Part shown: in pieces, positions 39,003-52,042 of the stretch
Numbering within the stretch: position 1 is the stretch's first letter
How the letters are laid out: each line of letters opens with the position of its first letter
From: a virus
Virus record (IMG/VR): IMGVR_UViG_3300037119_005106
Coordinates: 1-64,000 of that record
DNA: 64,000 bases
Reading direction: 5' to 3' (one strand)
Notes under the pieces: model-generated
Told to the model about the DNA's origin: nothing
Seen by the model: the letters and a program-made list of their open reading frames with translations, nothing else
Database searches by the model: none
Program-made: the position numbers and the translations under genes

Positions 39003-41180
39003 TTACGAGTGTTCAATATTTTTTAAAATTTCTTGTTGGATTAAATCCTCAAAGGATGTTTTTCGCTTGCCTTCATACTCTTTTTTAAGGGATTCAAGAT
39101 TCTTTTTATCCTCAGCACGCTTACGTGTAATCTCTCGTCGGTCATAATCAGTAAGATGGATATCGGGATTAAATGTTTCCAACATATCTAAGTCTTGACC
39201 ACTATATGTTTTTACAAGAACGTTTCCTTTCTTATCCACATCATAATAAGCCATTGCATCAAATATGTTTTGACCATCATCATAATCATCATCATCTTCC
39301 TCTACTGTCATTTCAAACATTTCCAGTTTGTAAAGTAGAACGATCATGTAAGCCATAGCGATATCTGTATTGGTATCTCCAAAATCGATAAGGTCAAGCA
39401 ATATATTTTTGAACCAAATATTTTCAGAATTATTCTTAACCTCGGCTTTAAGTAATTTGGTACCCAATACTTTTACATCGGTAGTCATACGTTGACCAAA
39501 TTCATTCTTGGCTTTGGTAGGACCTAAATCTTTTCTTAAATCAGGACGTATTTTCAAATACTTCTCAGCGCCTACATCCTTGAAGTAACTTTCGATAGCA
39601 ATTTTAGAATATTCAAAAAGCAATTCATAATTGTAATAGATAGCCAACTTCACATTATTCTCATAAAACGTATCATCATTACTTGAATCGCCACGTTCTG
39701 CCAATACCGCTATTGGTAGATTGAATTCTCTTGATGGTCCAGCATAGGTTCTAAAAACAACTGTAGAACCATCGGAAGCCGTTTTGGAATCTTCCTCTAC
39801 TTCCTCATCATAACTATCACAACCAGCGATATCAGGTTTGTGGTCCATATCATCATGATTAATAGGATCCGCTATTTTCTGAATAACTCCATTCTCATCA
39901 TCGAACCAACGAAGCTTGGATTTGTTTTTAATACGGAGTTTTGTTTTCTCCTTGGTATCTTTACATTTCTGCAAAGATTTTATAGTACGTTCATCATCTA
40001 CCCATTCTAGGCGACCTCTCCTAACATCATAAGGACAAAGCCCTTCTTCTATTACCATCAACTGATTGTTCAGTTTAACGCGGTCAAGAATACCCCCTTT
40101 GGTTTTAATGAAAATCTCAGATTCTTTAATTGGATAAGACTGTATGTGTTTGGTAATACCATCTTTGGATTTGGAAGCAATTTTACGTTGGTCAATAATA
40201 TGCTTTAACGCTGCTTCTTGGTTTGTTCTACCGGTTCTAATATCAAAGAACGATGGCTGTTGAACACCTGTTTTGGCATCAGTTTCTCCATCCCCTGGAT
40301 AATATTCATAAGCCGGAATAAATACTTTTTCAAGATTGTAGGCTTTGTGGTTCTCCCACATTTCCATATAACCTTTTGAACCTTTTTCAATCTGTCCACC
40401 GGTACCATAAATCAATGGAGTTCCAAATTGTATCGCTCCATCTTTAAAACAAGGTTCTGTTGATTTATAGGAAGCAATTAGATTACCAAATAAACCCGCT
40501 TCCTCAAAAATAACCAAAGACATAGAAGCACCCTCGAATCCAGCACTATCAACAAACATGGTTCGGATAAGCATTTCAGATTCTAAACCACATTCAATAG
40601 ATTGCTTATTTACGATATCGCTATATCCTAGTTTCAGCAATTTATCATTTTTCAATAATCTGGCAGAAGCATACTCAGGTCTTATGTTTTTAAGCAAGGA
40701 CATTACTTTGTCTACAAAACCATCAACCTTGTCTTGCTTACCAGCACATACACCAATACGGTTACGCAAGTGCATGATGAGTTCATATTCAGCCTGACAA
40801 GCTCCAAACTCTGATAAACCAACCCTACGAGGTTTACCAACAATTAAACCATAACGATGTTTCTTGGCATCATAGGTAATTTTAAATAATCTATTATCAA
40901 GTTCCCGATAGTACGGTGAATGGAGTTTCTTTCTTGAAGCACCTTGTGGAAGCATTTCAATTTGATTCATATTTAAATGAAAGTAATGCTCTCCAGTAAT
41001 ATCGTTCATTCCTCTTGGCTTGAAACCAAAAAGACATCGATCATCTTGTTCATCCCAAAAATCATCATAAGCTAAAGTTCCTGGTCTAAGTGAATGGGAA
41101 TACTTTATGACTTTTTCATCATAAACAAGCGGACTAAAACGCTGAGCATTGTAGGTGTGATCAAGAATTGTAACAGCCAT
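39003..41180 (-). CDS. terL: terminase large subunit
   Basis: ITGEHYFHLN, KPRRVGLS (Walker A), IFEEAG (Walker B), YGTGG, AGCDSYD nuclease motif, DIAMA. Confidence 0.93.
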   Translation of the reverse strand: MAVTILDHTYNAQRFSPLVYDEKVIKYSHSLRPGTLAYDDFWDEQDDRCLFGFKPRGMNDITGEHYFHLNMNQIEMLPQGASRKKLHSPYYRELDNRLFKITYDAKKHRYGLIVGKPRRVGLSEFGACQAEYELIMHLRNRIGVCAGKQDKVDGFVDKVMSLLKNIRPEYASARLLKNDKLLKLGYSDIVNKQSIECGLESEMLIRTMFVDSAGFEGASMSLVIFEEAGLFGNLIASYKSTEPCFKDGAIQFGTPLIYGTGGQIEKGSKGYMEMWENHKAYNLEKVFIPAYEYYPGDGETDAKTGVQQPSFFDIRTGRTNQEAALKHIIDQRKIASKSKDGITKHIQSYPIKESEIFIKTKGGILDRVKLNNQLMVIEEGLCPYDVRRGRLEWVDDERTIKSLQKCKDTKEKTKLRIKNKSKLRWFDDENGVIQKIADPINHDDMDHKPDIAGCDSYDEEVEEDSKTASDGSTVVFRTYAGPSREFNLPIAVLAERGDSSNDDTFYENNVKLAIYYNYELLFEYSKIAIESYFKDVGAEKYLKIRPDLRKDLGPTKAKNEFGQRMTTDVKVLGTKLLKAEVKNNSENIWFKNILLDLIDFGDTNTDIAMAYMIVLLYKLEMFEMTVEEDDDDYDDGQNIFDAMAYYDVDKKGNVLVKTYSGQDLDMLETFNPDIHLTDYDRREITRKRAEDKKNLESLKKEYEGKRKTSFEDLIQQEILKNIEHS

Positions 41181-41198
41181 AGATTGTAATTTAAAATA

Positions 41199-41233
41199 GA
41201 AACAGCTTTCGCAAATAAATGGAAAGCTGTTTC
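41199..41233 (-). promoter_or_regulatory. hairpin immediately upstream of terL (terminator/attenuator)
   Basis: gaaacagctttc / gaaagctgtttc 12-bp inverted repeat. Confidence 0.55.
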
Positions 41234-41277
41234 AGAACAAATAAAAAAGAAGGACTTTTCAGAATGTAAATACAGAA

Positions 41278-41709
41278 CTATTCCTCTATTTTATTCAGTT
41301 TCTCAAGCTTGTCCGATAACGCATCACGTTGAGCAATTGCTTCGATAAGTTGCGTTCTTAAACTTTTAATTGTTTCTTGATTTGCTTTTAGAACCGTTTT
41401 GAAATGGTCTTTCTCAACCGCAGTAGCAGGTTTAGCAAATACATGTTCTTCTTCTTCCGGAACTTCTTCCTCTGATGCTGGAATTTCCTCATCAGGAACT
41501 TCTGAACTTGGCGCTCCTTCTTCTGGAACAACAGTATCAGGAAATTTTTTCTCAAAAACTTTGTCCACATCTTCTGAAGAAGCTTCAGGAGGTAATGGCG
41601 TTTTTAATAATTCTAAATCTGTTTCAGCTTTCGGTGCTTCCGGAATCTGACTCTCTTGCTTTGGCAAGTTCTCGTTCTCTTGCTTCGGCTTCTCTTTTTT
41701 GTCGTTCAT
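41278..41709 (-). CDS. acidic low-complexity protein with C-terminal coiled coil
   Basis: E/P-rich ORF overlapping the upstream gene. Confidence 0.55.
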   Translation of the reverse strand: MNDKKEKPKQENENLPKQESQIPEAPKAETDLELLKTPLPPEASSEDVDKVFEKKFPDTVVPEEGAPSSEVPDEEIPASEEEVPEEEEHVFAKPATAVEKDHFKTVLKANQETIKSLRTQLIEAIAQRDALSDKLEKLNKIEE

Positions 41710-42247
41710 AATAGAATGATTTTTTGTCTAGAATTTTTACTTCCAAACGGGTTAATTTATATCCATTTCTAACAGGACTCTCAGCAAACTTTTCCTTATT
41801 CCCATTCTTTTTATCAAAAGCATCATGAAGATCGTTGATATTGGAAAGTTCTTTTAGCAAAGAAGTTTTCTGAAAGGTTGTTTCGGCATTCTTAATTTCA
41901 TTCAGCTTATTAATTCTAAGCTGCTCCATCAATCCCTTTTCTTCCAAAGATGGATTGTATTGAAGTTCTTTATAATTGATACAAGCAAGCTGTATTTCAT
42001 CACAATTCCAATTCAAAGCCTTTCTATTGTTAAAAACAATATTCATTGCTTTCAATGGTTTTTCCTTCTCGCTGTAGTTGTTAATTATAGAACCATAATC
42101 AATCACTAAAGCTACACAAGTTAAGGCTTGAATACCATACCCTTCTTTGTTTACCAAATCCCTAAAAGATTCAATAGCCATCCAATTGTCTAATTCATCA
42201 TCATCTTTTATCAGTCCAGTAATCGGATTTAATTGCAATAGATACAT
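41624..42247 (-). CDS. conserved protein near terL, possible terminase small subunit
   Basis: Helical, position upstream of terL. Confidence 0.4.
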   Translation of the reverse strand: MYLLQLNPITGLIKDDDELDNWMAIESFRDLVNKEGYGIQALTCVALVIDYGSIINNYSEKEKPLKAMNIVFNNRKALNWNCDEIQLACINYKELQYNPSLEEKGLMEQLRINKLNEIKNAETTFQKTSLLKELSNINDLHDAFDKKNGNKEKFAESPVRNGYKLTRLEVKILDKKSFYYERQKREAEARERELAKARESDSGSTES

Positions 42248-42258
42248 CAAAAGTATGT

Positions 42259-42627
42259 TTAATTTTTAATAAATACACTATATTTTTTCAAACCATATTC
42301 ATTAATCAGATTGAAATATTGTCTTTTCTCTACAAAAATATCAAATCTTTCCATTACTGCTTTAAAAATATCTTTTTTTAATACTTCTGGAAATACCTTA
42401 GAAAACAATTCATTAAGATATCCAACCTTGTATTCTGATTTTTCTTTATTCAAAGTGATGTGTTCTGGAATATAAACTTTAGGATATTTTAAAAAAAGGA
42501 CATCCCTTAACGAAGCGGTTTCTTGCTCCGTTAAAAGGGATGGATCTTTTATATATTTTCCATTAAGTATTATCATCACTTGCGATTGACAAATTAGAAA
42601 CATTTTCTTCCGAAATACGCTTGGCAT
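42259..42627 (-). CDS. hypothetical protein
   Basis: ORF in operon; start uncertain. Confidence 0.45.
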   Translation of the reverse strand: MPSVFRKKMFLICQSQVMIILNGKYIKDPSLLTEQETASLRDVLFLKYPKVYIPEHITLNKEKSEYKVGYLNELFSKVFPEVLKKDIFKAVMERFDIFVEKRQYFNLINEYGLKKYSVFIKN

Positions 42628-42973
42628 CCTCGGCTAACTTTTTGTTCTCAGCTTCAGCTGCATTATTCTTAGCAGAGATAAAAGCATCAAACTCCTTGAT
42701 GATGGATTGGCTACGACGAACACCGAACTTCATTCCCAAGTCCTTTTTAATTCTCATATCCAATTCCTTTTGCACTTCTGCATAAATCTCATCAGCTTCC
42801 GTTCTAGCATCAATTGATTTGTAAACAATTTTCTCTATTTCTTCTTTGGTACAAAAACCGCCAGAAACAGCTCTTTCCGCTTCGCCTTGGATTTCAATAT
42901 TAGTAGTGATGATATTCTCCAAGATGGTAGAATAGTTCAATAAATCTGAGGTAGTTAACTTTTCTAAGTTCAT
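42563..42973 (-). CDS. hypothetical helical protein
   Basis: ORF immediately downstream of groEL. Confidence 0.55.
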   Translation of the reverse strand: MNLEKLTTSDLLNYSTILENIITTNIEIQGEAERAVSGGFCTKEEIEKIVYKSIDARTEADEIYAEVQKELDMRIKKDLGMKFGVRRSQSIIKEFDAFISAKNNAAEAENKKLAEDAKRISEENVSNLSIASDDNT

Positions 42974-42977
42974 AATT

Positions 42978-44525
42978 TTATTGGTTGTGTGTTTCCACGA
43001 TTAGACATTCGGTTGACAGAACAGTAAGAGCAATACTTACCGCATTAGTAAGTCCATTGATAGAAACACTTATTGGATCCACAATACCTGATTCATAAAG
43101 ATTCTCAAACTTTCTTGTTTTGGCATTATATCCTTTTTCGAAAGAAATAGCATTTCCAATTTTAAGTATTTCATCATCATTATGAAATGAGTTCTTTAAA
43201 ATTTCAGCAAAAGGTCGACAAATAGATGAATAAAAAATAGTTTGAAAAGGATCAGGATTTCTTATATCTTTTGAAAGCAATACCAAACTCTGACCACCAC
43301 CTATAATCACATTGTCTTTCAATGCAGCTTTACAAGCTTTATAAGCATCTTCCACACGATGCTTCTTTTCCTTGATTTCAATATCACTAGCACCACCAAC
43401 ATAGAAAGTAGTAATACCATTTTTCATCTTGTCAATACGCTTGAGCATCGATGTAGAATGATAAGCTGATTTTTCTTCTTTAGAAGCCATTTCCAATAAG
43501 AACAGATATTCATCCAATAACTCTTTTCGAGTTCCTTCAACTTCTCCAAAAACGGTATAACCTTGTTTTACGACAACATTATTGGCTTCTCCAAACTCAC
43601 TATCATATTCATTGAAATTCTGAATAATATCAGCTCCAGTGTATTGAGATAGGTCATTCATGTAATTCATGTACTCATCATTTCTGAATTGGTTTTTAAT
43701 CAAACAGATTTTAATTCCTATACGGTCCATATTGTTGAATTCAACAATACTTTCCACGTCCTTTGAGAAATCTTTGGCAAAAATGATTATAGGCAATGGA
43801 TTTACTTTTGAACCAGTGTCTATCAATCGAATGATTTCTTTTTTATCGGTAAACTCATTGTCATACAAAATAACTTTACATTTATCCGCTTCAAAGTATC
43901 CTGTTATCGGATTGTTGGCATACTTTCTGTCACAATACCCCATTTCAACAACATATCCTTTGATGATATCCACATAACTTTTACCAGTCATGGTTTCAAG
44001 GATATTGATATAGCCATCTTCTTTGGCGTTGTTAAAAGCTTTTTGGAATAGGTTAGCAATTTCCAAATCATTGTTAGCTGAAGTAAGCGCTACTTTACCA
44101 ATTTCTGCTAAAGGAATTTTTACCGAATTCTTTCTAATAGCATTAACGATATATTGCAATTCAGCATTAATAGTTTCTCTGAAAAGATGTTCATTAAATC
44201 CTGATTTAGAACGAGCTTCCATTCCTAATGCAATTAAGGTGCGACACACAACTGTAGCGCTTGTGGTACCATCACCCGAATCCTCATCGGTTTTACTAGC
44301 CACCTTTTTTACCATCTGAATACCTACGTTAATCACTGGATCGGGATGATTCATTTCCATAGCAACAGTAACACCATCTTTTGTAGCAAAAGGATCTTCT
44401 CCGGCATTCGCTATAATTACAGTTTTACCACTTGGACCAAGTGTGCTTTTAACAGCGTTGTAAAGAAGGTCTACCCCTTCCATCAACTTGTCCTGACTAT
44501 CGTTTAAGTATATCCTTTTTGACAT
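42978..44525 (-). CDS. groEL: phage chaperonin GroEL
   Basis: KSTLGPSG, TKDGVTVA, GDGTTSAT, VGGASDIEIKEKKHRVEDA, GIVDP. Confidence 0.95.
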   Translation of the reverse strand: MSKRIYLNDSQDKLMEGVDLLYNAVKSTLGPSGKTVIIANAGEDPFATKDGVTVAMEMNHPDPVINVGIQMVKKVASKTDEDSGDGTTSATVVCRTLIALGMEARSKSGFNEHLFRETINAELQYIVNAIRKNSVKIPLAEIGKVALTSANNDLEIANLFQKAFNNAKEDGYINILETMTGKSYVDIIKGYVVEMGYCDRKYANNPITGYFEADKCKVILYDNEFTDKKEIIRLIDTGSKVNPLPIIIFAKDFSKDVESIVEFNNMDRIGIKICLIKNQFRNDEYMNYMNDLSQYTGADIIQNFNEYDSEFGEANNVVVKQGYTVFGEVEGTRKELLDEYLFLLEMASKEEKSAYHSTSMLKRIDKMKNGITTFYVGGASDIEIKEKKHRVEDAYKACKAALKDNVIIGGGQSLVLLSKDIRNPDPFQTIFYSSICRPFAEILKNSFHNDDEILKIGNAISFEKGYNAKTRKFENLYESGIVDPISVSINGLTNAVSIALTVLSTECLIVETHNQ

Positions 44526-44778
44526 GTTCTGCTTTTAAATGACACTGAATTTCTGCAGTGTTGATTATACAATACGTTTCTCCTTCAAAGCTTTGTTCAT
44601 TGTAGAAACGGTGATTGAACTTTACCAAATCTCCTTTGGCGTATTTCTCATTCCCATTCACTACTTCAAAGAATATGTCCGAAGTATCCTGTGGATCCCT
44701 TTTTTTACTGGTTTCATATTTGACCTTTCTTGTCAAAATATTGCCATTGTCCATTTCCAACAATTCTGCTAGATTCAT
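44497..44778 (-). CDS. groES: GroES-like co-chaperonin (in frame with an upstream TM peptide starting at 44949)
   Basis: KGDLVKF...EGETYCIINTAEI resembles the GroES C-terminal half; overlaps the groEL start. Confidence 0.65.
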   Translation of the reverse strand: MNLAELLEMDNGNILTRKVKYETSKKRDPQDTSDIFFEVVNGNEKYAKGDLVKFNHRFYNEQSFEGETYCIINTAEIQCHLKAEHVKKDILKR

Positions 44779-44948
44779 AATTTTCTTGTCTTTATTTATT
44801 TCTTTTTTTTTCACTAATCCCATAACTACAATCGAAATGAACATAGTTGCAATTAGGCAACCATAAAAAAAGTCCAAAGGAGTGGTTCTCCTTATCGGAC
44901 TTTCTTTAATAGTTTCTTCAACAATTTCTGGATTGAATAATCTAGCCA

Positions 44949-45194
44949 TTAAACTACTTGTTTAAAATTTTTTCCAGTCTTGAATTTATTGAACCAATCT
45001 TTGAGAACTACTCCTGGAGCAAAAGCTTCATTAAATTCTTTTGCAGTAACCGGCCAATAATCATAAGAAGCACCTCTTTGAAATTCTACACGAACAACAG
45101 AACTTGGTTTGCCATCAATAGTTTTGTTATGCCATCCAATAGATTTTAGATTGGAACTTTGAACTTCGTGCTGAATATTTATCTCTTTTGCCAT
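44949..45194 (-). CDS. KTSC domain protein
   Basis: VQSSNLKSIGW...VEFQRGASYDYWPV....F. Confidence 0.85.
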   Translation of the reverse strand: MAKEINIQHEVQSSNLKSIGWHNKTIDGKPSSVVRVEFQRGASYDYWPVTAKEFNEAFAPGVVLKDWFNKFKTGKNFKQVV

Positions 45195-45196
45195 GA

Positions 45197-45658
45197 CTAA
45201 TCTTTTTGAGTTGATACCCCTTTGAACTCCGCAATACGATTGGACAAAACAGAGAAGTATTGTCGCATCACCAACAACTGCATTTTCAATCGGCATCGTT
45301 CTGCAGGTGGAATATTTTCAAAAATTGGATTAGATTCTATAAAGTCATGCAACTTCACAATCTTATCATGCAATTCATTTGCTTCCCAAATAACTCTTTG
45401 CTCATGAGAGAATTCACTTCCAATATCAGCAAGAGTATCAACAGGTTTGATGTAGGCTTCCTCAAATTGCTTCTTAGGACTCCAAGAGATATAACCCGTA
45501 TGATTTACGTGATTTGAAGTATCTCCTTTGTATTCTACCAAATACCCCTCATCTGAACCATTCTCATCAGAAGGCAATTCCCAACCTCTATAAAGATTGT
45601 ATTCTTCTCTGGTCATTGGCGTAGCTTCAATCTCTCTTGTTCCGATATACTTTTCCAT
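45197..45658 (-). CDS. two-domain protein (YIGT..GYISWSPK..FEEAY domain + crAss001_48-like helical domain), candidate immune-signal sponge
   Basis: Recognisable motifs of both domains; next to the Acb2/Tad1-like gene. Confidence 0.6.
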   Translation of the reverse strand: MEKYIGTREIEATPMTREEYNLYRGWELPSDENGSDEGYLVEYKGDTSNHVNHTGYISWSPKKQFEEAYIKPVDTLADIGSEFSHEQRVIWEANELHDKIVKLHDFIESNPIFENIPPAERCRLKMQLLVMRQYFSVLSNRIAEFKGVSTQKD

Positions 45659-45675
45659 TTTTACAGTTTTAAGGA

Positions 45676-45888
45676 TTATACAAATAAAGCTTTTACAGCA
45701 TACATACATGATGTTTCTGCATCAGTTTGAGCGATAGAGATTTCTCTACCATTGCGCTCATTTCTACTCTCTTCCAGATTATCAATTAGCGTTGCATAAG
45801 CTTCCTTAATATTCTCCACTTGTGGATTTGCTGACGGATTGAAGTTTCTCTGAACTCTCTTTTGTCCTAACGTGATATTCTCAGCCAT
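45676..45888 (-). CDS. Acb2/Tad1-like hairpin protein (candidate nucleotide sponge)
   Basis: FNPS...IK...LID..REISIAQTDAETSCMYAVKA parallels the Acb2/Tad1 helix-pair signature R..(A/S)IA.T..(E/Q)...M...(K/R)A. Confidence 0.65.
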   Translation of the reverse strand: MAENITLGQKRVQRNFNPSANPQVENIKEAYATLIDNLEESRNERNGREISIAQTDAETSCMYAVKALFV

Positions 45889-45935
45889 AATAGTTGCAGC
45901 ACTTTACCTTGCCATCGGTTCCTTTAGTTTATTTG

Positions 45936-46727
45936 TTATAGTTTGTTCAAAAATTCAAATAATTGCTTGTTCCATCTTGCATCCTCAATAGCATTGTGTG
46001 ATTTGGATGGATCTTGTTTTGGATAATCAGTCATTTTTTTAATATAGTCTAATACTTGACTTTGATTTTGCCAAACAGTGTGAGGTAAATATTTATCTGC
46101 TTTATCATCCAAAATCTGCTTCAAATCCTTGCAATACATCGGAAATCCTTTTGGTAAGTCCATCATTTTTCCAAACAACCAACAGAATACTACCCAGTCA
46201 TAATCGGCGTAGTAGGCGTAGAATTCAATTGGATGATTTTGCAAACTTCTTCCAGAATCTAATGTATTCCAAAAATGACAAAACTCTTTAACTTCTTCAG
46301 CAATTTGATTGTTGGTTTTTCCATAGCGAAAAAGCAATCTTTCAAATAATGAGAATCCTGATTCATGTCTTTCCATATCACCCATGAAATTACCAAGATT
46401 ACCATAAACTTCTTTTGATTTATTAGGATAATCCTTTTGATACAATTCCCAGAAGATAGGATACAACACATTCTCACGAAGCCAGTATTCTTTATATCCT
46501 TCTGGACGATGGTTTCTCATATCTCCAGAATACTGCTTCATATCATATCTATTCCAAGCTTCTTTCAAATTAAAGTCTTTGGAAATAGCATAGTATTCTC
46601 GACCATCCTCAGCCACTATACCAATCGATATCAAATCAATTGTCGGTTTGGTTTCTCCAATGGTAAACCCTAAAAAAGTTTTCTTTTGTGGCCCTTCAAG
46701 GAATTCTGTATCTATGAAATAACGCAT
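45936..46727 (-). CDS. DEDDh 3'-5' exoribonuclease (Rv2179c/RNase AS-like)
   Basis: FIDTEF, LISIGIV, YYADYDWV, PMYCKDL, HNAIEDARW. Confidence 0.88.
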   Translation of the reverse strand: MRYFIDTEFLEGPQKKTFLGFTIGETKPTIDLISIGIVAEDGREYYAISKDFNLKEAWNRYDMKQYSGDMRNHRPEGYKEYWLRENVLYPIFWELYQKDYPNKSKEVYGNLGNFMGDMERHESGFSLFERLLFRYGKTNNQIAEEVKEFCHFWNTLDSGRSLQNHPIEFYAYYADYDWVVFCWLFGKMMDLPKGFPMYCKDLKQILDDKADKYLPHTVWQNQSQVLDYIKKMTDYPKQDPSKSHNAIEDARWNKQLFEFLNKL

Positions 46728-47470
46728 ATTTTTTCTATTTTATAGTTATATAATTTATTATTTAATCTTATTGCATTTGAAATAGATCCTTGTTTTACTT
46801 TTTCAAAACCTATTTTATTAAAATATTCAACAACTTCTTGATGTGAATGAAATTTTTTTGAAAAATTATCTTTAGATATTTTTATATTATGCTTACCTAA
46901 TCTATTTTCTCTTTTAATTAATTTTTCGGAAAAAGACCACCTAAAACCAAAAGCACTAAACGTAATTCCTAAACAAGATTGTGATATATGAGAAGAACCA
47001 TTTTTTGTTTTTTCTAAAAATTTTAATGCTTCAATAATTGAATTGTGTTTTTGAATCAATTCCCCTTTTTTAGAAAATTGAAATACTTTTTTTGATGTAT
47101 GATGTAATCCACCAACTATAGTTCTTGTCTTTGAATTTTCTGAATGTTTTAATCCTAATAAACTTCCTGCCACTAAACAACTATTATAATCCGTTCCTTT
47201 ATTTATAAAAAATTGTTCTGTTACAATACAATCTTCTTTTGAGCATATTGAAATAATTTCAAATTTAAAATTTTCAAATCCATATTTCTTAAATGCTTTA
47301 AACAAAATAGGTTGGTTACACAATTCTTTCTTATAAGCTGAGCAATATTGAAGGTATCTTTGTCTAAAATTAGTACTTGTACTGCCAATATAAATTTTAT
47401 TGTTTATAGTATTTATTATAGAATATACTCCGGTTTTTCTCCAATTAGATTTTTCTACATCAAAATTCAT
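46712..47470 (-). mobile_element. free-standing GIY-YIG homing endonuclease with NUMOD-type repeats
   Basis: GVYSIINTINNKIYIGS, VFQFSKKGELI..SIIEA..AFGFRWS; very AT-rich; own -7 box caaatgta 47491-47498. Confidence 0.88.
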
Positions 47471-47534
47471 AATAAAATATTTTATAGATACAAATGTATT
47501 AATAAATATCAATAAAATATTTCATACCTTCTTT

Positions 47535-47960
47535 TTATTTATTTCTGTCAAACGGATCAAACTTGAAAAACTCTTCTGGATTGAATTCATTCCTACTTTG
47601 TTGCATTCTTTCCATAAAGGATTTTCCCATAACCGGAAATGGACCAGCTTCCTCATAACCAGTAGGAATAAAAACATGATTCAAATCCTTTCCTCTACCA
47701 GCTTCTAACCAATTGTAATAATCAGCACTATGATTACCACCCGTTCCAAAAATCATTGGAATACCAATTACACGAGAACCAGGACGTCTTGCTTTTAACA
47801 AAATCATTTCCTTCATAGCTTCATCAATCTCTGGTGAATTTGGTGGATACACAACAAAAGTTTTCTTCTCTTTAGATAAAAAAATATCTTCTAAAGCTTT
47901 CTCTATACCTTCTTTGGTGAGATTTGGATATACCATCTTCTTCTTATCACGCTTTGCCAT
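47535..47960 (-). CDS. collapsed terminase-ATPase-like mini protein
   Basis: LKARRPGS + GIPMIFGTGG + VFIP segments match TerL motifs. Confidence 0.6.
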   Translation of the reverse strand: MAKRDKKKMVYPNLTKEGIEKALEDIFLSKEKKTFVVYPPNSPEIDEAMKEMILLKARRPGSRVIGIPMIFGTGGNHSADYYNWLEAGRGKDLNHVFIPTGYEEAGPFPVMGKSFMERMQQSRNEFNPEEFFKFDPFDRNK

Positions 47961-47963
47961 AAC

Positions 47964-48173
47964 CTACTTCTTATAGTTCGTAAAATCAATCTCCACATGT
48001 GCCTGAGCCAAAGCCAAAGAACGATGCTCATTAGCAATACGCAAAGAAAGAGCATCATGAATCAACACAGGAGAAGCAACCATCCATATAGCAGTAAGAT
48101 AGAAATAAATCTCAACTGCATCAAATCCCTTGCACTCCATCTTCCATATCAATTCTGACAACGTGTTATTCAT
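47964..48173 (-). CDS. hypothetical protein (69 aa)
   Basis: ATG 48173 after an AT-rich leader. Confidence 0.5.
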   Translation of the reverse strand: MNNTLSELIWKMECKGFDAVEIYFYLTAIWMVASPVLIHDALSLRIANEHRSLALAQAHVEIDFTNYKK

Positions 48174-48312
48174 AATAAATTGTTTTTTATTAATGGCGGG
48201 CAAGGCTGGGAGCCTTACATCTCCCTTAACCCCTCCCAATGAATAGCATTCCAACTACCATAGCTCGGACTTCAACCGGCATTTCCCTACTAGAAGTGTA
48301 GAGCGATATTCG

Positions 48313-48446
48313 TGGAGGATGCAGGACTCGAACCTACGACTTACTCATACAACTTTTACGGCTTAATAATTATGGCGCCTTAATGTTCATCACTCCGCTT
48401 CACATTACTTGTACTTTCACACTTTAACCAACTCAGTCAATCCCCC
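48313..48446 (-). ncRNA. tRNA-like RNA (Ala-type acceptor) with about 80-nt insert replacing the anticodon arm
   Basis: GGGGGAT/ATCCTCC-A acceptor, D-arm ACTGAGTTGGTTAAAGT, T-arm GTAGG-TTCGAGT-CCTGC. Confidence 0.75.
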
Positions 48447-48498
48447 CAGTGTGGGCTACTCTCCCCGCGCTTGTCCTCTCCATCGGAGGTTAATACTG

Positions 48499-48606
48499 TG
48501 GAGAAGAACGGACTCGAACCGCTGACCATTGAAAGGATTTGAGCCATATGCAAGATACGCTAACTACTGTTCTTTCAACTACTCTAACCAACTGAGCTAC
48601 TTCCCC
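48499..48606 (-). ncRNA. tRNA-like RNA (Ala-type acceptor) with extended anticodon arm and no canonical anticodon loop
   Basis: GGGGAAG/CTTCTCC-A acceptor, D-arm GCTCAGTTGGTTAGAGT, stem GTTGAAAG/CTTTCAAT, GGTC variable loop, T-arm AGCGG-TTCGAGT-CCGTT. Confidence 0.8.
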
Positions 48607-48698
48607 ATTCGCCCAAACAGCTTCCAGATAGTTTCCTCCGTTCTCTAAATTAATAATCTAACACAATATCATTTAAACAAACCACTGTTTGGACTTTA

Positions 48699-48706
48699 CA
48701 AATATA
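48699..48706 (-). promoter_or_regulatory. -7 promoter box TATATTTG driving the tRNA-mimic/accessory operon
   Basis: caaatata on the plus strand. Confidence 0.6.
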
Positions 48707-48867
48707 TGCAATTATTGCACACTACCAAACCATAATATAAAATAATTAAAAAGAAATTATAAAGTAGATATCCACACACAACTATACCGAACAAATTATA
48801 GATAGGTAATTATTGCATATGATGGAACAGGATGATATAAATTAACCGAGGGTTGCTTATATACAAA

Positions 48868-48905
48868 AGCCCCCGGCCTACTTCTAAACTTCGAAGGCGG
48901 GGGCT
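48868..48905. other. GC-rich hairpin at the strand-divergence point
   Basis: agccccc-g-gcct ... aggc-gggggct. Confidence 0.6.
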
Positions 48906-48960
48906 ATAAAACAAATTAAAAATTCAGTAAGATTTAACAACCCTCTTACTCTTAAACAAT

Positions 48961-50993: not shown

Positions 50994-51512
50994 ATGAAAA
51001 CTATCAACAAACAATCAGTACAATCAGCAGCGGTAACAGCAGTAAAAGTAATTGTTTATCCAGCTCACTTGGTGGCTCAAACAACAGCAGACCTATTGAA
51101 TATTGGTCAAGCTAAAGCAATCAATTTGATTGATGGCACAGAAATATATGAGTCTATGATGAATCAACAATCGTGGACACAACAACAACAGGCTACTGTT
51201 GTGGAGAAAGCTATGACTATCAGAGAGAAGATGCAAGAGCAACGTCTATTCAATAGACAACAAGACATTGACAAGTTAAAATCCAAATTGGATAAACTTG
51301 AAGGAGTAGAGCACATCGATAGTACAGAACCTACTGCCACTAACACAGAAGCTCCAGCTGTAACAACAGAACCTATTGCTGTACCAACACCACCAAACAT
51401 GGTGATTGAACCACCAAAAGAGGATACTACTGGCGAAGCGGTACCATTTGTACCAATCAACCAACGTAAACCAAAAGCTAAAGACGTGCCATTAATGACA
51501 CCAAAAGAATAA
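50994..51512 (+). CDS. early hypothetical protein, paralog of 48961..49233, with coiled coil and P/T-rich tail
   Basis: See paralog. Confidence 0.65.
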   Translation: MKTINKQSVQSAAVTAVKVIVYPAHLVAQTTADLLNIGQAKAINLIDGTEIYESMMNQQSWTQQQQATVVEKAMTIREKMQEQRLFNRQQDIDKLKSKLDKLEGVEHIDSTEPTATNTEAPAVTTEPIAVPTPPNMVIEPPKEDTTGEAVPFVPINQRKPKAKDVPLMTPKE

Positions 51513-51579: not shown

Positions 51580-51620
51580 GGACGAATAGGCAATAGCGGG
51601 TTCGATTCCCGCATCGTCCA
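51580..51620 (+). ncRNA. tRNA minihelix (acceptor + T arm only)
   Basis: GGACGA...GCGGG-TTCGATT-CCCGC-ATCGTCC-A. Confidence 0.6.
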
Positions 51621-51688: not shown

Positions 51689-52042
51689 ATGAATACAGTA
51701 AACTTCATCGGAAACGCAGGACAAGAGCCAACAATCAAAACTCTTGACAATGGTACAATCGTAGCTAAATTCAATGTGGCTACAAAAGAAACGTACACTG
51801 ATAAAGAAGGTGCTCCAGTAGAGAAAACTACTTGGCACAGAATTGTAGCCTGGAATAAAGCAGCAGAAGCAATAGCTAAAACGGTTCACAAAGGTAGTTT
51901 CATTCATATCAAAGCTAAAGTAGTTACAAATGAATACGATAAAGTAATCAAGGTGCCTATCTCAGCTAAGAAAACTATTGATCATACCATCAAAGTCAAA
52001 GGCACAGAGTTCCAAGCATTCGAAGTAACAGTGCTTCGTTAA
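51689..52042 (+). CDS. ssb: single-stranded DNA-binding protein (OB fold, no acidic tail)
   Basis: MNTVNFIGNAGQEP..VAKFNVAT..TTWHRIVAWNK.AE....VHKGS. Confidence 0.92.
   Translation: MNTVNFIGNAGQEPTIKTLDNGTIVAKFNVATKETYTDKEGAPVEKTTWHRIVAWNKAAEAIAKTVHKGSFIHIKAKVVTNEYDKVIKVPISAKKTIDHTIKVKGTEFQAFEVTVLR

What the first reader, a model, noticed from the sequence alone, without database searches (positions are those of the whole stretch)
44497..48706. One host-promoter operon combining RNA mimics, a protein mimic, sponges and RNA-handling proteins
Seen: from the TATATTTG box at 48699-48706 the minus strand reads tRNA mimic x2, 69-aa ORF, mini-TerL, HEG, DEDDh exonuclease, Acb2/Tad1-like, two-domain sponge candidate, KTSC, GroES, GroEL, mostly tightly packed. 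Inference: a decoy island. The RNase AS-like 3' exonuclease and KTSC (single-stranded nucleic acid binding) might mature or bind the tRNA mimics, and the unknown ORFs (47964-48173, 42259-42973) become anti-defence candidates by association.
Basis: inference. Interest (0 to 1): 0.7.

Follow-up and report, generated by a model that had tools for sequence, protein, structure and literature searches.

The report
Mosaic accessory block heading a phage arm
The stretch is the first 4 kb of the long packaging and structural gene arm of a soil crAss-like phage: the genes listed are real, but relatives show a conserved backbone with independently inserted extras, including two alanine-type tRNA look-alikes, rather than one co-adapted decoy operon.

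Summary
There are two tRNA-like RNAs, a 69-aa ORF, a 141-aa TerL-like mini-protein, a GIY-YIG homing endonuclease and an Rv2179c-like DEDDh exonuclease. There is also an Acb2/Tad1-hairpin protein and a crAss001_48-domain protein. The KTSC-like and GroES-like calls rest on weak matches; the GroEL call is strong. The promoter box is backed by conservation in three relatives.

The "decoy island" reading holds only in part.
- Conserved in close relatives (TerL 77-82% identical): orf69, hairpin protein, KTSC-like, GroES-like, GroEL and onward to TerL.
- Variable between them: the tRNA-like RNAs, the homing endonuclease, the exonuclease, the p141-like gene and the crAss001_48 protein.
- The alanine-type tRNA look-alikes belong to a wide family in Bacteroidota phages. 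Its members sit in unrelated gene contexts, in genomes without the exonuclease, and share no phage protein with this phage.
- So the proposed link of exonuclease or KTSC to the mimics is not supported. ORFs 42259-42973 are core genes.

One coupling is supported: the 141-aa protein, the crAss001_48 domain and the Acb2-like hairpin are fused into one protein elsewhere.

The scan had already noted anticodon-less alanine-type tRNA mimics in other phage genomes.

The parts
48867..48925 (-). GC-rich hairpin followed by UUUUG, upstream boundary of the block
   Evidence: Seen in the sequence; the inner part is called terminator-like. The same hairpin plus TTTTGTATATAAGCAAC is conserved in L052.
48699..48729 (-). 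Bacteroidota-type promoter-like element: TTTG, 19 nt, TATATTTG, with the palindromic core TGCAATAATTGCA
   Evidence: Conserved at the equivalent place in L049, L052 and L054. Single occurrence in the window. Transcription start not measured.
48499..48606 (-). tRNA-like RNA 1 (108 nt): alanine-type acceptor GGGGAAG/CUUCUCC with A73, normal D and T arms, and an 8-bp extended stem plus distal hairpin in place of the anticodon stem-loop
   Evidence: Rfam tRNA 47.9 bits; model R1 60.6 bits; not called by ARAGORN; fold. The orthologue L049:3530-3637 has the same length, two compensatory acceptor pairs and an 8-bp stem of different sequence.
48313..48446 (-). tRNA-like RNA 2 (134 nt): acceptor GGGGGAU/AUCCUCC with A73, a weakened D stem (3 of 4 pairs), a T arm, and a 76-nt insert
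   Evidence: Rfam 36.8 bits; R1 30.4 bits; table. The insert has no significant fold. No orthologue was found in relatives.
47964..48173 (-). orf69, a small protein of unknown function; a leading ORF of the arm in relatives
   Evidence: 51-56% identical orthologues in L048/L049, L052 and L054. No Pfam family; phrog_7619 at E 0.002 only.
47535..47960 (-). p141, a TerL-derived mini-protein (invariant G.PMIFGTGG motif)
   Evidence: 16/45 identical to own TerL residues 246-290. Six cluster representatives, the query's own included, in an exhaustive HMMER search. Fused to an Acb2 hairpin in L052. Fused to crAss001_48 plus an Acb2-like hairpin in P0004. Homologue L049:3772-4350.
46712..47512 (-). 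GIY-YIG homing endonuclease (likely start ATG at 47470; a TAnnTTTG box lies at 47498-47491)
   Evidence: PF01541 4e-8; phrog_314 4e-17. Absent from all relatives examined. Box position.
45936..46727 (-). Rv2179c-like (RNase AS-like) DEDDh 3'-5' exonuclease
   Evidence: PF16473 31.2 bits (cut-off 27); phrog_2259 3.5e-50. DTE at residues 6-8 and H-x4-D at 253-258 read from the translation. Present in L048/L049, L054, L001-L005 and L059; absent in L052.
45676..45888 (-). 70-aa Acb2/Tad1-hairpin-domain protein
   Evidence: PF24729 1.1e-9. Orthologues at the same place in L049 (C-terminus of a 237-aa protein), L052 (fused to p141-like) and L054; also next to the exonuclease in L001. No PDB sequence match.
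45197..45709 (-). Two-domain protein: N-terminal domain (phrog_872) plus a C-terminal crAss001_48 helical domain (likely start 45658)
   Evidence: PF21825 5.4e-17; phrog_872 8e-26. C-domain 49% identical to P0004 residues 219-286. Not found in relatives' loci.
44949..45296 (-). KTSC-like small protein (likely start 45194)
   Evidence: PF13619 below cut-off in all five orthologues, E 3e-5 to 0.18. Always directly upstream of the GroES-like gene.
44497..44949 (-). p150, a probable GroES-like co-chaperonin with an N-terminal hydrophobic segment
   Evidence: Atlas structure look-alike: GroES cluster, TM 0.58. L054 orthologue hits Cpn10 at E 0.054. Always overlaps the GroEL start.
42978..44525 (-). 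GroEL-type chaperonin
   Evidence: PF00118 1.2e-44; phrog_5725 2.9e-103. Conserved down to relatives with TerL 45-48% identical.
39003..42973 (-). Core genes p136, p122, p208, p143 and TerL that continue the same arm
   Evidence: TerL phrog_6681 9e-51. p208 next to TerL in nearly all 36 relatives; p122 in most. Every ORF of 250 aa or more from 1067 to 47512 is on the minus strand.

Best explanation
The stretch is the promoter-proximal 4 kb of the 47.6-kb leftward (chaperonin, packaging, structural) arm of a complete 80.5-kb soil crAss-like phage. It is a mosaic, not a co-adapted decoy operon.

Shown
- A backbone is kept in close relatives: orf69, a helical-hairpin protein, KTSC-like, GroES-like, GroEL and on to TerL. 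A p141-like TerL-derived gene is kept in two of the three.
- p141, the crAss001_48 domain and the Acb2-like hairpin belong to one functional module, because they are fused into single proteins in other phages.
- Independent extras sit in this backbone: two alanine-type tRNA-like RNAs, a GIY-YIG homing endonuclease and an Rv2179c-like exonuclease.

Inferred mechanism
- Host RNA polymerase starts at the conserved TTTG-N19-TAnnTTTG promoter.
- The two tRNA-shaped modules in the leader are cut out by host RNase P and 3' processing and receive CCA.
- Because they keep exactly the acceptor marks that alanyl-tRNA synthetase reads, they can probably be charged with alanine. Without an anticodon loop they cannot decode.
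- They therefore act on host factors that read the top half of tRNA-Ala. Examples are competition with tmRNA or tRNA-Ala-dependent processes, or acting as a decoy for tRNA-directed immunity. They do not act with proteins of this block.
- The exonuclease, the homing endonuclease and the chaperonin pair work independently of the RNAs.
For: Genome and arm
- Complete 80.5-kb virus record, with about 110 nt of terminal overlap.
- All large ORFs from 1067 to 47512 are on the minus strand.

Synteny
- L048/L049: orf69, one tRNA-like RNA, p141-like, exonuclease, hairpin fusion, KTSC.
- L052: orf69, p141-hairpin fusion, KTSC; no exonuclease, no RNA.
- L054: orf69, an ACP-like gene, exonuclease, hairpin, KTSC; no RNA.
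- Relatives with TerL 40-50% identical: many keep GroEL, most keep p122, and nearly all keep p208 beside TerL.

tRNA-like RNAs
- A covariance-model search of 745 kb from 50 loci of relatives found them only in the window, L001, L002 and L048/L049.
- The RNA family is found by its 3' half in 19 viral and 13 bacterial loci.
- 22 of 24 members keep G3:U70 and 23 of 24 keep A73, while the D loop ranges 7-52 nt and the middle 14-140 nt.
- Most sit in a different, syntenic siphovirus-like group, upstream of canonical tRNAs, TerL and portal.
- PF16473 is absent from four such genomes that are 88-100% complete.
- No relevant protein is shared with this phage.
- The middle region is conserved within a subfamily (75-95% identity) while the flanks are not alignable.

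Other
- Fusions.
- Promoter conservation.
Against: - No transcript data exist: no RNA run holds this DNA, so the operon structure, the processing and the stability of the RNAs are all inferred.
- Within the crAss-like clade every locus with a tRNA-like RNA also has the exonuclease (window, L049, L001, L002). A local association therefore cannot be excluded. However, L001-L005 were found through the exonuclease, and the window and L049 are close kin.
- The L052 fusion could be a by-product of deleting the exonuclease gene.
- The genomic context of the triple fusion P0004 is unknown.
- Aminoacylation is untested, and RNA 2 has a weakened D stem.
- The RNA family was collected with an exact 22-nt 3' pattern, so constancy of the 3' half is partly by construction. 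The 5' half and the D arm were not in the pattern.
Confidence: 0.6

Rival explanations
1. One reading: one host-promoter operon that forms a co-adapted decoy island. The RNase AS-like exonuclease and the KTSC protein would mature or bind the tRNA mimics, and the neighbouring unknown ORFs would be anti-defence genes by association.
For: - Tight co-directional packing behind a conserved promoter.
- An Acb2/Tad1 hairpin domain.
- In the crAss-like clade the four loci with tRNA-like RNAs all carry the exonuclease.
Against: - KTSC, GroES-like and GroEL persist without any tRNA-like RNA in L052, L054 and L047.
- Mimic-bearing genomes that are 88-100% complete lack the exonuclease family and share no relevant protein with this phage.
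- The exonuclease stands alone in L003-L005 and L059.
- p136, p122 and p208 are core genes beside TerL.
Confidence: 0.1
2. The tRNA-like elements act in cis. They would be RNase P / RNase Z punctuation marks that trim the leader and set a stable 5' end for the long mRNA of the arm; the excised RNAs would have no function of their own.
For: - They lie in the leader or between ORFs, on the coding strand, in the window, L049 and L001.
- An intact acceptor and T arm are what RNase P needs (established knowledge).
Against: - Punctuation does not require G3:U70, A73 or G1-G4:C69-C72. These are kept across three different acceptor stems in the window and L049, and in 22 of 24 family members.
- The middle parts are conserved within subfamilies.
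- In L020 the element sits directly behind its own promoter box, like a separate small RNA gene.
Confidence: 0.15
3. The two RNAs work like the tag-less (tRNA-like-domain-only) tmRNA of mycobacteriophage DS6A. Charged with alanine, they would enter stalled ribosomes or bind tmRNA partners and so inhibit host trans-translation.
For: - Alanine identity set, T arm, and a long helix replacing the anticodon arm.
- PMC11915505 states that the CDS-less DS6A form inhibits endogenous tmRNA in E. coli.
- No phage-encoded partner is shared among carriers, which fits a host target.
Against: - Both RNAs keep a tRNA-type D stem and D loop rather than the stem-less tmRNA D loop.
- ARAGORN finds no tmRNA, and the best Rfam clan member is tRNA.
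- SmpB binding is untested, and the bulky, variable middle parts may clash with it.
Confidence: 0.15
4. The tRNA-like elements are decaying remnants of former phage tRNA-Ala genes, and the block is an ordinary run of unrelated small genes.
For: - Presence is sporadic among close relatives.
- RNA 2 has a weakened D stem and an insert without a significant fold.
- Canonical phage tRNA-Ala genes with the same 3' half exist (L029, L033).
Against: - Decay would erode all parts alike. Instead the top half stays 86-100% identical while the flanks are unalignable.
- Acceptor changes are compensatory and spare the alanine identity pairs.
- The inserts keep their length and stem architecture between the window and L049.
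Confidence: 0.08

Closest known systems
Variable accessory / counter-defence gene slots in phage genomes, for example the T-even tRNA region with the GIY-YIG endonuclease SegB (PMC13096335)
   Same: A promoter-proximal slot whose content differs between close relatives. tRNA-type genes lie beside a GIY-YIG homing endonuclease, with small proteins of sponge-like families nearby.
   Different: The RNAs here cannot decode. No defence system or counter-defence activity has been shown. Much of the block (orf69, hairpin protein, KTSC-like, GroES-like, GroEL) is conserved backbone rather than cargo.
Tag-less (tRNA-like-domain-only) tmRNA of mycobacteriophage DS6A (as described in PMC11915505)
   Same: A phage-encoded small RNA with an alanine-type acceptor and T arm and no decoding function. 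A host-directed action is plausible.
   Different: The RNAs here keep a canonical tRNA D arm. They carry long, variable structured inserts at the anticodon-arm or D-loop position. They are closest in sequence to Bacteroidota tRNA-Ala, not to tmRNA.
Canonical phage or host tRNA-Ala of Bacteroidota (for example L039 tRNA-Ala(GGC); L029 and L033 tRNA-Ala(UGC))
   Same: Near-identical acceptor 3' strand and T arm, G3:U70 and A73, and no encoded CCA.
   Different: No 7-nt anticodon loop. The region between the D and T arms is 57 and 83 nt, against 22-23 nt in a tRNA.
Acb2 and Tad1 signal sponges (PMC10312549; bioRxiv 10.1101/2023.11.15.567273)
   Same: The 70-aa protein matches the Pfam Acb2/Tad1 hairpin domain above its cut-off.
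   Different: Only the hairpin is matched. There is no sequence match to solved Acb2 or Tad1 chains. In relatives the hairpin is a C-terminal module fused to other domains (p141-like, crAss001_48), which may point to an oligomerisation role.
Rv2179c / RNase AS family of DEDDh 3'-5' exoribonucleases (PF16473)
   Same: Pfam match above cut-off; DEDDh motifs are present.
   Different: It carries about 90 extra residues. The substrate is unknown, and no link to the tRNA-like RNAs was found.

Membership tests
Single operon (one transcription unit) | One promoter at the head, conserved in relatives | tested here: met
   TTTG-N19-TATATTTG at 48729-48699. Equivalent elements in L049, L052 and L054.
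Single operon (one transcription unit) | No internal promoters or terminators; one continuous transcript | not testable with these tools
   No clear terminator inside the block, but a TAnnTTTG box lies just upstream of the endonuclease ATG. No RNA run holds this DNA. The arm continues for 47 kb.
Co-inherited functional island | Components co-occur across relatives | tested here: not met
   tRNA-like RNAs, endonuclease, exonuclease and crAss001_48 protein vary independently. Only p141, crAss001_48 and the hairpin are linked, by fusions.
Canonical tRNA | Acceptor stem, D arm and T arm with a UUCRANY loop | tested here: met
   Rfam tRNA 47.9 and 36.8 bits; table. RNA 2 has 3 of 4 D-stem pairs.
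Canonical tRNA | 5-bp anticodon stem with a 7-nt loop (U33, anticodon, purine 37) | tested here: not met
   42 nt replace the 7-nt loop, and 76 nt replace the arm. ARAGORN calls none. No removal of an internal segment gives a loop with U33 (read from the sequence).
tRNA-Ala identity (AlaRS substrate) | G3:U70, A73, G2:C71, G4:C69 | tested here: met
   Present in both RNAs and in the L049 orthologue, although pairs 5-7 differ.
tRNA-Ala identity (AlaRS substrate) | Actual charging with alanine; CCA end | not testable with these tools
   CCA is not encoded, as also in the host-type tRNA-Ala L039. An in vitro aminoacylation assay is needed.
tmRNA / tRNA-like-domain-only tmRNA | D loop without a stem, helix 2 and pseudoknots, tag reading frame | tested here: not met
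   Canonical D stem; ARAGORN finds no tmRNA; the best Rfam clan member is tRNA.
Acb2/Tad1 sponge | Hairpin domain | tested here: met
   PF24729 38.7 bits against a cut-off of 27. Orthologues also hit it.
Acb2/Tad1 sponge | Full-length fold with ligand pockets; binding of cyclic nucleotides or gcADPR | not tested
   No PDB sequence match at E up to 1. No structure model was made for it; a binding assay is needed.
Rv2179c-like DEDDh exonuclease (PF16473) | Profile match above cut-off and DEDDh motifs | tested here: met
   31.2 bits against 27; phrog_2259 3.5e-50; DTE and H-x4-D read in the translation.
KTSC domain (PF13619) | Profile match above cut-off | tested here: inconclusive
   12-24 bits against a cut-off of 25, but the match recurs in all five orthologues.
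GroES / Cpn10 | Cpn10 profile or fold | tested here: inconclusive
   No Pfam hit for the window protein. L054 orthologue E 0.054. Atlas structure look-alike: GroES cluster, TM 0.58. The gene always overlaps the GroEL start.
GroEL / Cpn60 | Cpn60_TCP1 profile | tested here: met
   PF00118 1.2e-44; phrog_5725 2.9e-103.
TerL-derived protein (mini-TerL) | Significant similarity to the terminase ATPase region | tested here: inconclusive
   45-aa local match to own TerL, pairwise E 5e-5. The motif G.PMIFGTGG is invariant in the family. The structure model was too poor to compare (pLDDT 38).
GIY-YIG homing endonuclease | GIY-YIG catalytic domain; sporadic presence | tested here: met
   PF01541 4.4e-8; phrog_314 3.9e-17. 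Absent from all relatives.

The most novel reading that the evidence does not exclude
The two RNAs would belong to a widespread, undescribed class of Bacteroidota-phage RNAs built on a tRNA-Ala scaffold. The class would have a constant, AlaRS-readable top half that carries diverse structured modules, conserved within subfamilies, in place of the anticodon arm or inside the D loop. They would need no phage protein partner and would act on host machinery, for example by blocking trans-translation or by blunting tRNA-directed immunity such as the tRNA-cleaving type VI-B Cas13b systems of Bacteroidota (PMC13692257). In parallel, p141, crAss001_48 and the Acb2-like hairpin would form an oligomeric TerL-fragment display that acts as a decoy for terminase-sensing immunity.
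Probability: 0.2. Interest if true: 0.8.

Novelty: new variant of a known kind. Interest (0 to 1): 0.45.

Why it matters
- It turns an attractive but over-connected "decoy island" idea into testable pieces.
- The tRNA look-alikes are host-directed and independent of the neighbouring proteins. This narrows the search for their target to host factors that read the top half of tRNA-Ala.
- The fusions point to one concrete multi-protein module: the TerL-like mini-protein plus two helical hairpin domains. That module can be expressed and assayed.
- The hairpin occurs here as a module fused to other domains, so a match to the Acb2/Tad1 hairpin domain alone should not be read as proof of a nucleotide sponge.

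Tried and rejected
Searches that found nothing
- Public phage records: megablast and blastn gave no match.
- RNA evidence: no RNA holder is listed for this DNA. Only soil metagenome DNA runs hold it.
- Intron reading of the inserts: no cut leaves a loop with U33 (sequence). Rejected.
- Antisense or guide reading: the inserts have no complementarity beyond 12-nt chance matches in the phage genome.
- Conserved RNA downstream of RNA 2: nothing convincing.
- PADLOC: no hits for ten proteins of the block.
- PDB sequence search for the two hairpin proteins: nothing meaningful.
- Pairwise similarity between the Acb2-like protein and the crAss001_48 protein: none.
- Word-index homologue search for p141: only itself.
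- Literature: four searches found no paper describing this RNA family in Bacteroidota phages.

Runs without a usable result
- Structure model of p141: pLDDT 38, unusable, so no fold search was run.
- Complex prediction of p141 with the Acb2-like protein: no verdict.

Checked and not informative
- Sigma-70-type promoter scan: at background level, and not the right promoter type for Bacteroidota.
- The bare TAnnTTTG motif is not enriched.

Full report
**What the DNA is**

The window lies in a complete 80.5-kb virus record whose ends overlap by about 110 nt. It was recovered only from soil metagenome DNA runs. Gene content is crAss-like:
- a 3,965-aa virion RNA-polymerase-type polyprotein;
- a TerL matching phrog_6681;
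- a crAss001_48 domain protein.

Every ORF of 250 aa or more from 1,067 to 47,512 is on the minus strand. The finding is therefore the first 4 kb of a 47.6-kb leftward arm. That arm runs through GroEL and TerL, then a further run of large co-directional ORFs, to the polymerase polyprotein. The genome has no canonical tRNA gene.

**Observation**

All listed features are present.

Regulatory region:
- The box TATATTTG lies at 48706-48699, with TTTG 19 nt upstream.
- The bare motif is not enriched (75 found, about 85 expected).
- The same TTTG-N19-TAnnTTTG element, with a palindromic core, heads the arm in relatives L049, L052 and L054. The GC-rich hairpin upstream of it is also conserved in L052.
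- The element is unique in the window.

The two tRNA-like RNAs:
- They score 47.9 and 36.8 bits with Rfam tRNA.
- ARAGORN does not call them.
- They carry 42 nt in place of the anticodon loop and 76 nt in place of most of the anticodon arm.

Protein calls:

| Protein | Evidence |
|---|---|
| GIY-YIG endonuclease | PF01541 4e-8 |
| Rv2179c-like exonuclease | PF16473 above cut-off; phrog_2259 3.5e-50 |
| Acb2/Tad1 hairpin protein | PF24729 1e-9 |
| crAss001_48 protein | PF21825 5e-17, plus a phrog_872 N-terminal domain |
| GroEL | PF00118 1e-44 |
| KTSC-like | weak but consistent |
| GroES-like | structural lead only |
| 141-aa protein | 45-aa local match to the phage's own TerL |

Genes overlap or are 2-64 nt apart. 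No clear terminator lies inside the block.

**Relatives anchored on TerL**

Close relatives have TerL 77-82% identical. They keep orf69, a hairpin protein, KTSC-like, GroES-like, GroEL, p136, p122, p208 and then TerL. A p143-like ORF is detectable in most of them, and a p141-like gene in two of the three.

| Phage | Content of the variable part |
|---|---|
| This phage | two tRNA-like RNAs, p141, endonuclease, exonuclease, crAss001_48 protein |
| L048/L049 | one tRNA-like RNA (after orf69), a 192-aa p141 homologue, exonuclease, a 237-aa protein ending in the hairpin |
| L052 | p141-like fused to the hairpin; no exonuclease, no RNA |
| L054 | an acyl-carrier-like gene, exonuclease, hairpin; no p141-like gene, no RNA |

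Among relatives with TerL 40-50% identical, many keep GroEL, most keep p122 and nearly all keep p208 beside TerL.

A covariance model built here was run over 745 kb from 50 loci of relatives. It found tRNA-like elements only in the window, L001, L002 and L048/L049.

**The tRNA-like RNAs**

RNA 1, RNA 2 and the L049 orthologue have three different acceptor stems. All three keep G1-G4 paired with C69-C72, including G3:U70, and keep A73. Only pairs 5-7 change, and those changes are compensatory. This is the acceptor set read by alanyl-tRNA synthetase (established knowledge). RNA 1 and its orthologue share a total length of 108 nt and an 8-bp basal stem of unrelated sequence.

A scan for the 3' half found 19 viral loci and 13 bacterial loci, the latter in Flavobacteriia and Sphingobacteriia genomes or MAGs. 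Among 24 distinct members:
- 22 keep G3:U70 and 23 keep A73;
- the D loop ranges from 7 to 52 nt;
- the stretch between the D and T arms ranges from 14 to 140 nt, against 22-23 nt in a tRNA.

Canonical tRNA-Ala genes with nearly the same 3' half also turned up. The family therefore derives from, or imitates, Bacteroidota tRNA-Ala.

Within one subfamily the middle region is 75-95% identical while the flanks are unalignable. The middle is thus functional, yet it differs between subfamilies.

Most members lie in a different, syntenic siphovirus-like phage or prophage group. There they sit between a methylase region and small ORFs that precede TerL and an SPP1-type portal, and often directly upstream of canonical tRNAs.

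**Test of the proposed links**

- Four mimic-bearing genomes of that other group, 88-100% complete, lack the Rv2179c-like family.
- They share no relevant protein with this phage.
- The exonuclease occurs without a mimic or hairpin neighbour in L003-L005 and L059.
- KTSC stays glued to the GroES-like and GroEL genes whether or not a mimic is present.

So the exonuclease and KTSC are not partners of the RNAs in any general way. One caveat remains. Inside the crAss-like clade all four RNA-bearing loci also have the exonuclease. This is a small, phylogenetically dependent sample, and part of it was collected through the exonuclease itself.

**A link that does hold**

An exhaustive HMMER search found six cluster representatives for p141, the query's own included, all with the invariant motif G.PMIFGTGG.
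- In L052 the p141-like domain is fused to the Acb2/Tad1 hairpin.
- In P0004 one 372-aa protein joins three parts: a p141-like domain, a crAss001_48 domain 49% identical to the one here, and the start of an Acb2-like hairpin.
- These three proteins therefore most likely act together. In this phage the mobile endonuclease and the exonuclease lie between their genes.

The hairpin may be an oligomerisation module rather than, or as well as, a ligand sponge. The context of P0004 could not be retrieved.

**Comparison with known systems**

- As a locus, this resembles variable accessory slots of phages. One example is the T-even tRNA region with the GIY-YIG endonuclease SegB, which amplifies tRNA genes against a tRNA-cleaving defence (PMC13096335).
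- As RNAs, the closest described thing is the tag-less tmRNA of mycobacteriophage DS6A, reported to inhibit endogenous tmRNA (PMC11915505). The RNAs here keep a tRNA-type D arm and fail the tmRNA tests.
- Bacteroidota hosts carry type VI-B Cas13b systems that cleave tRNAs to make immune messengers (PMC13692257). That is a plausible but untested context.
- Earlier notes of this scan record anticodon-less alanine-type mimics in many other phages. This window extends them to crAss-like and other Bacteroidota phages and adds the variable-body pattern.

**Verdict**

- the conserved promoter, the variable accessory content and one fusion-backed protein module stand;
- the single co-adapted decoy operon, the exonuclease/KTSC link to the mimics, and guilt by association for the core ORFs do not.

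Function of the RNAs remains inferred.

Noticed in passing
window 51580-51620 (+), between ORFs 50994-51512 and 51689-52042: A 41-nt acceptor/T-arm minihelix (GGACGAA ... GCGGGUUCGAUUCCCGC AUCGUCC A) with no D or anticodon arm and no G3:U70. L049:5-64 (-) sits about 10 kb upstream of TerL, as this element does. It carries the same T stem (its T loop differs at one base) and a different, fully compensating acceptor (AGGCAAU/AUUGCCU; Rfam 30 bits). This is a third, conserved tRNA-like element in the rightward arm.
   Followed up: partly
L001:2328-2409 (+) (same contig as L031): An 82-nt tRNA with the alanine-type acceptor GGGGAAG/CUUCUCC and A73, a normal-size anticodon arm whose loop reads CUUUUAA (UUU, lysine-type), and a hairpin inserted in the D loop. 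ARAGORN calls it Tyr using another fold. It could be a decoding tRNA with mixed identity.
   Followed up: no
L002:2253-2358 (+): A 106-nt tRNA-like RNA with the same extended-arm architecture but a non-alanine acceptor (A1-U72, U3-A70, discriminator C). Its insert contains CUCUAAU. So the enlarged-arm design is not restricted to alanine identity.
   Followed up: no
P0004 (372 aa): A single protein that joins a p141-like domain, a crAss001_48 domain and an Acb2-like hairpin. Its genomic context could not be retrieved.
   Followed up: partly
window 48808-48825 (+) and 48867-48925: The divergent control region holds a second, oppositely oriented copy of AAT(A/T)ATTGCATAT and a GC-rich hairpin. 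The hairpin is conserved in L052. Together they look like an operator-like repeat at the switch between the two genome arms.
   Followed up: partly
L015-L046 (for example L017:1420-9372): A syntenic siphovirus-like phage or prophage group of Flavobacteriia and Sphingobacteriia. The order is DNA methylase, three small ORFs, the Ala-type tRNA mimic, often canonical tRNAs (Met, Phe, Tyr, Glu, Lys, Cys), then TerL and an SPP1-type portal.
   Followed up: partly
L041:800-821 and L044:155-176: Only the 3' half of tRNA-Ala(GGC), from the anticodon loop onward, abuts AT-rich DNA. This looks like attachment-site duplications left by elements integrated into tRNA-Ala.
   Followed up: no
L054:4370-4624 (+): An acyl-carrier-protein-like gene (PF00550, 1.4e-7) occupies the variable slot of a close relative.
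   Followed up: no
genome G000, first and last ~110 nt: The record's ends repeat each other, which fits a complete, circularly closed or terminally redundant assembly although IMG/VR classes it as linear.
   Followed up: no
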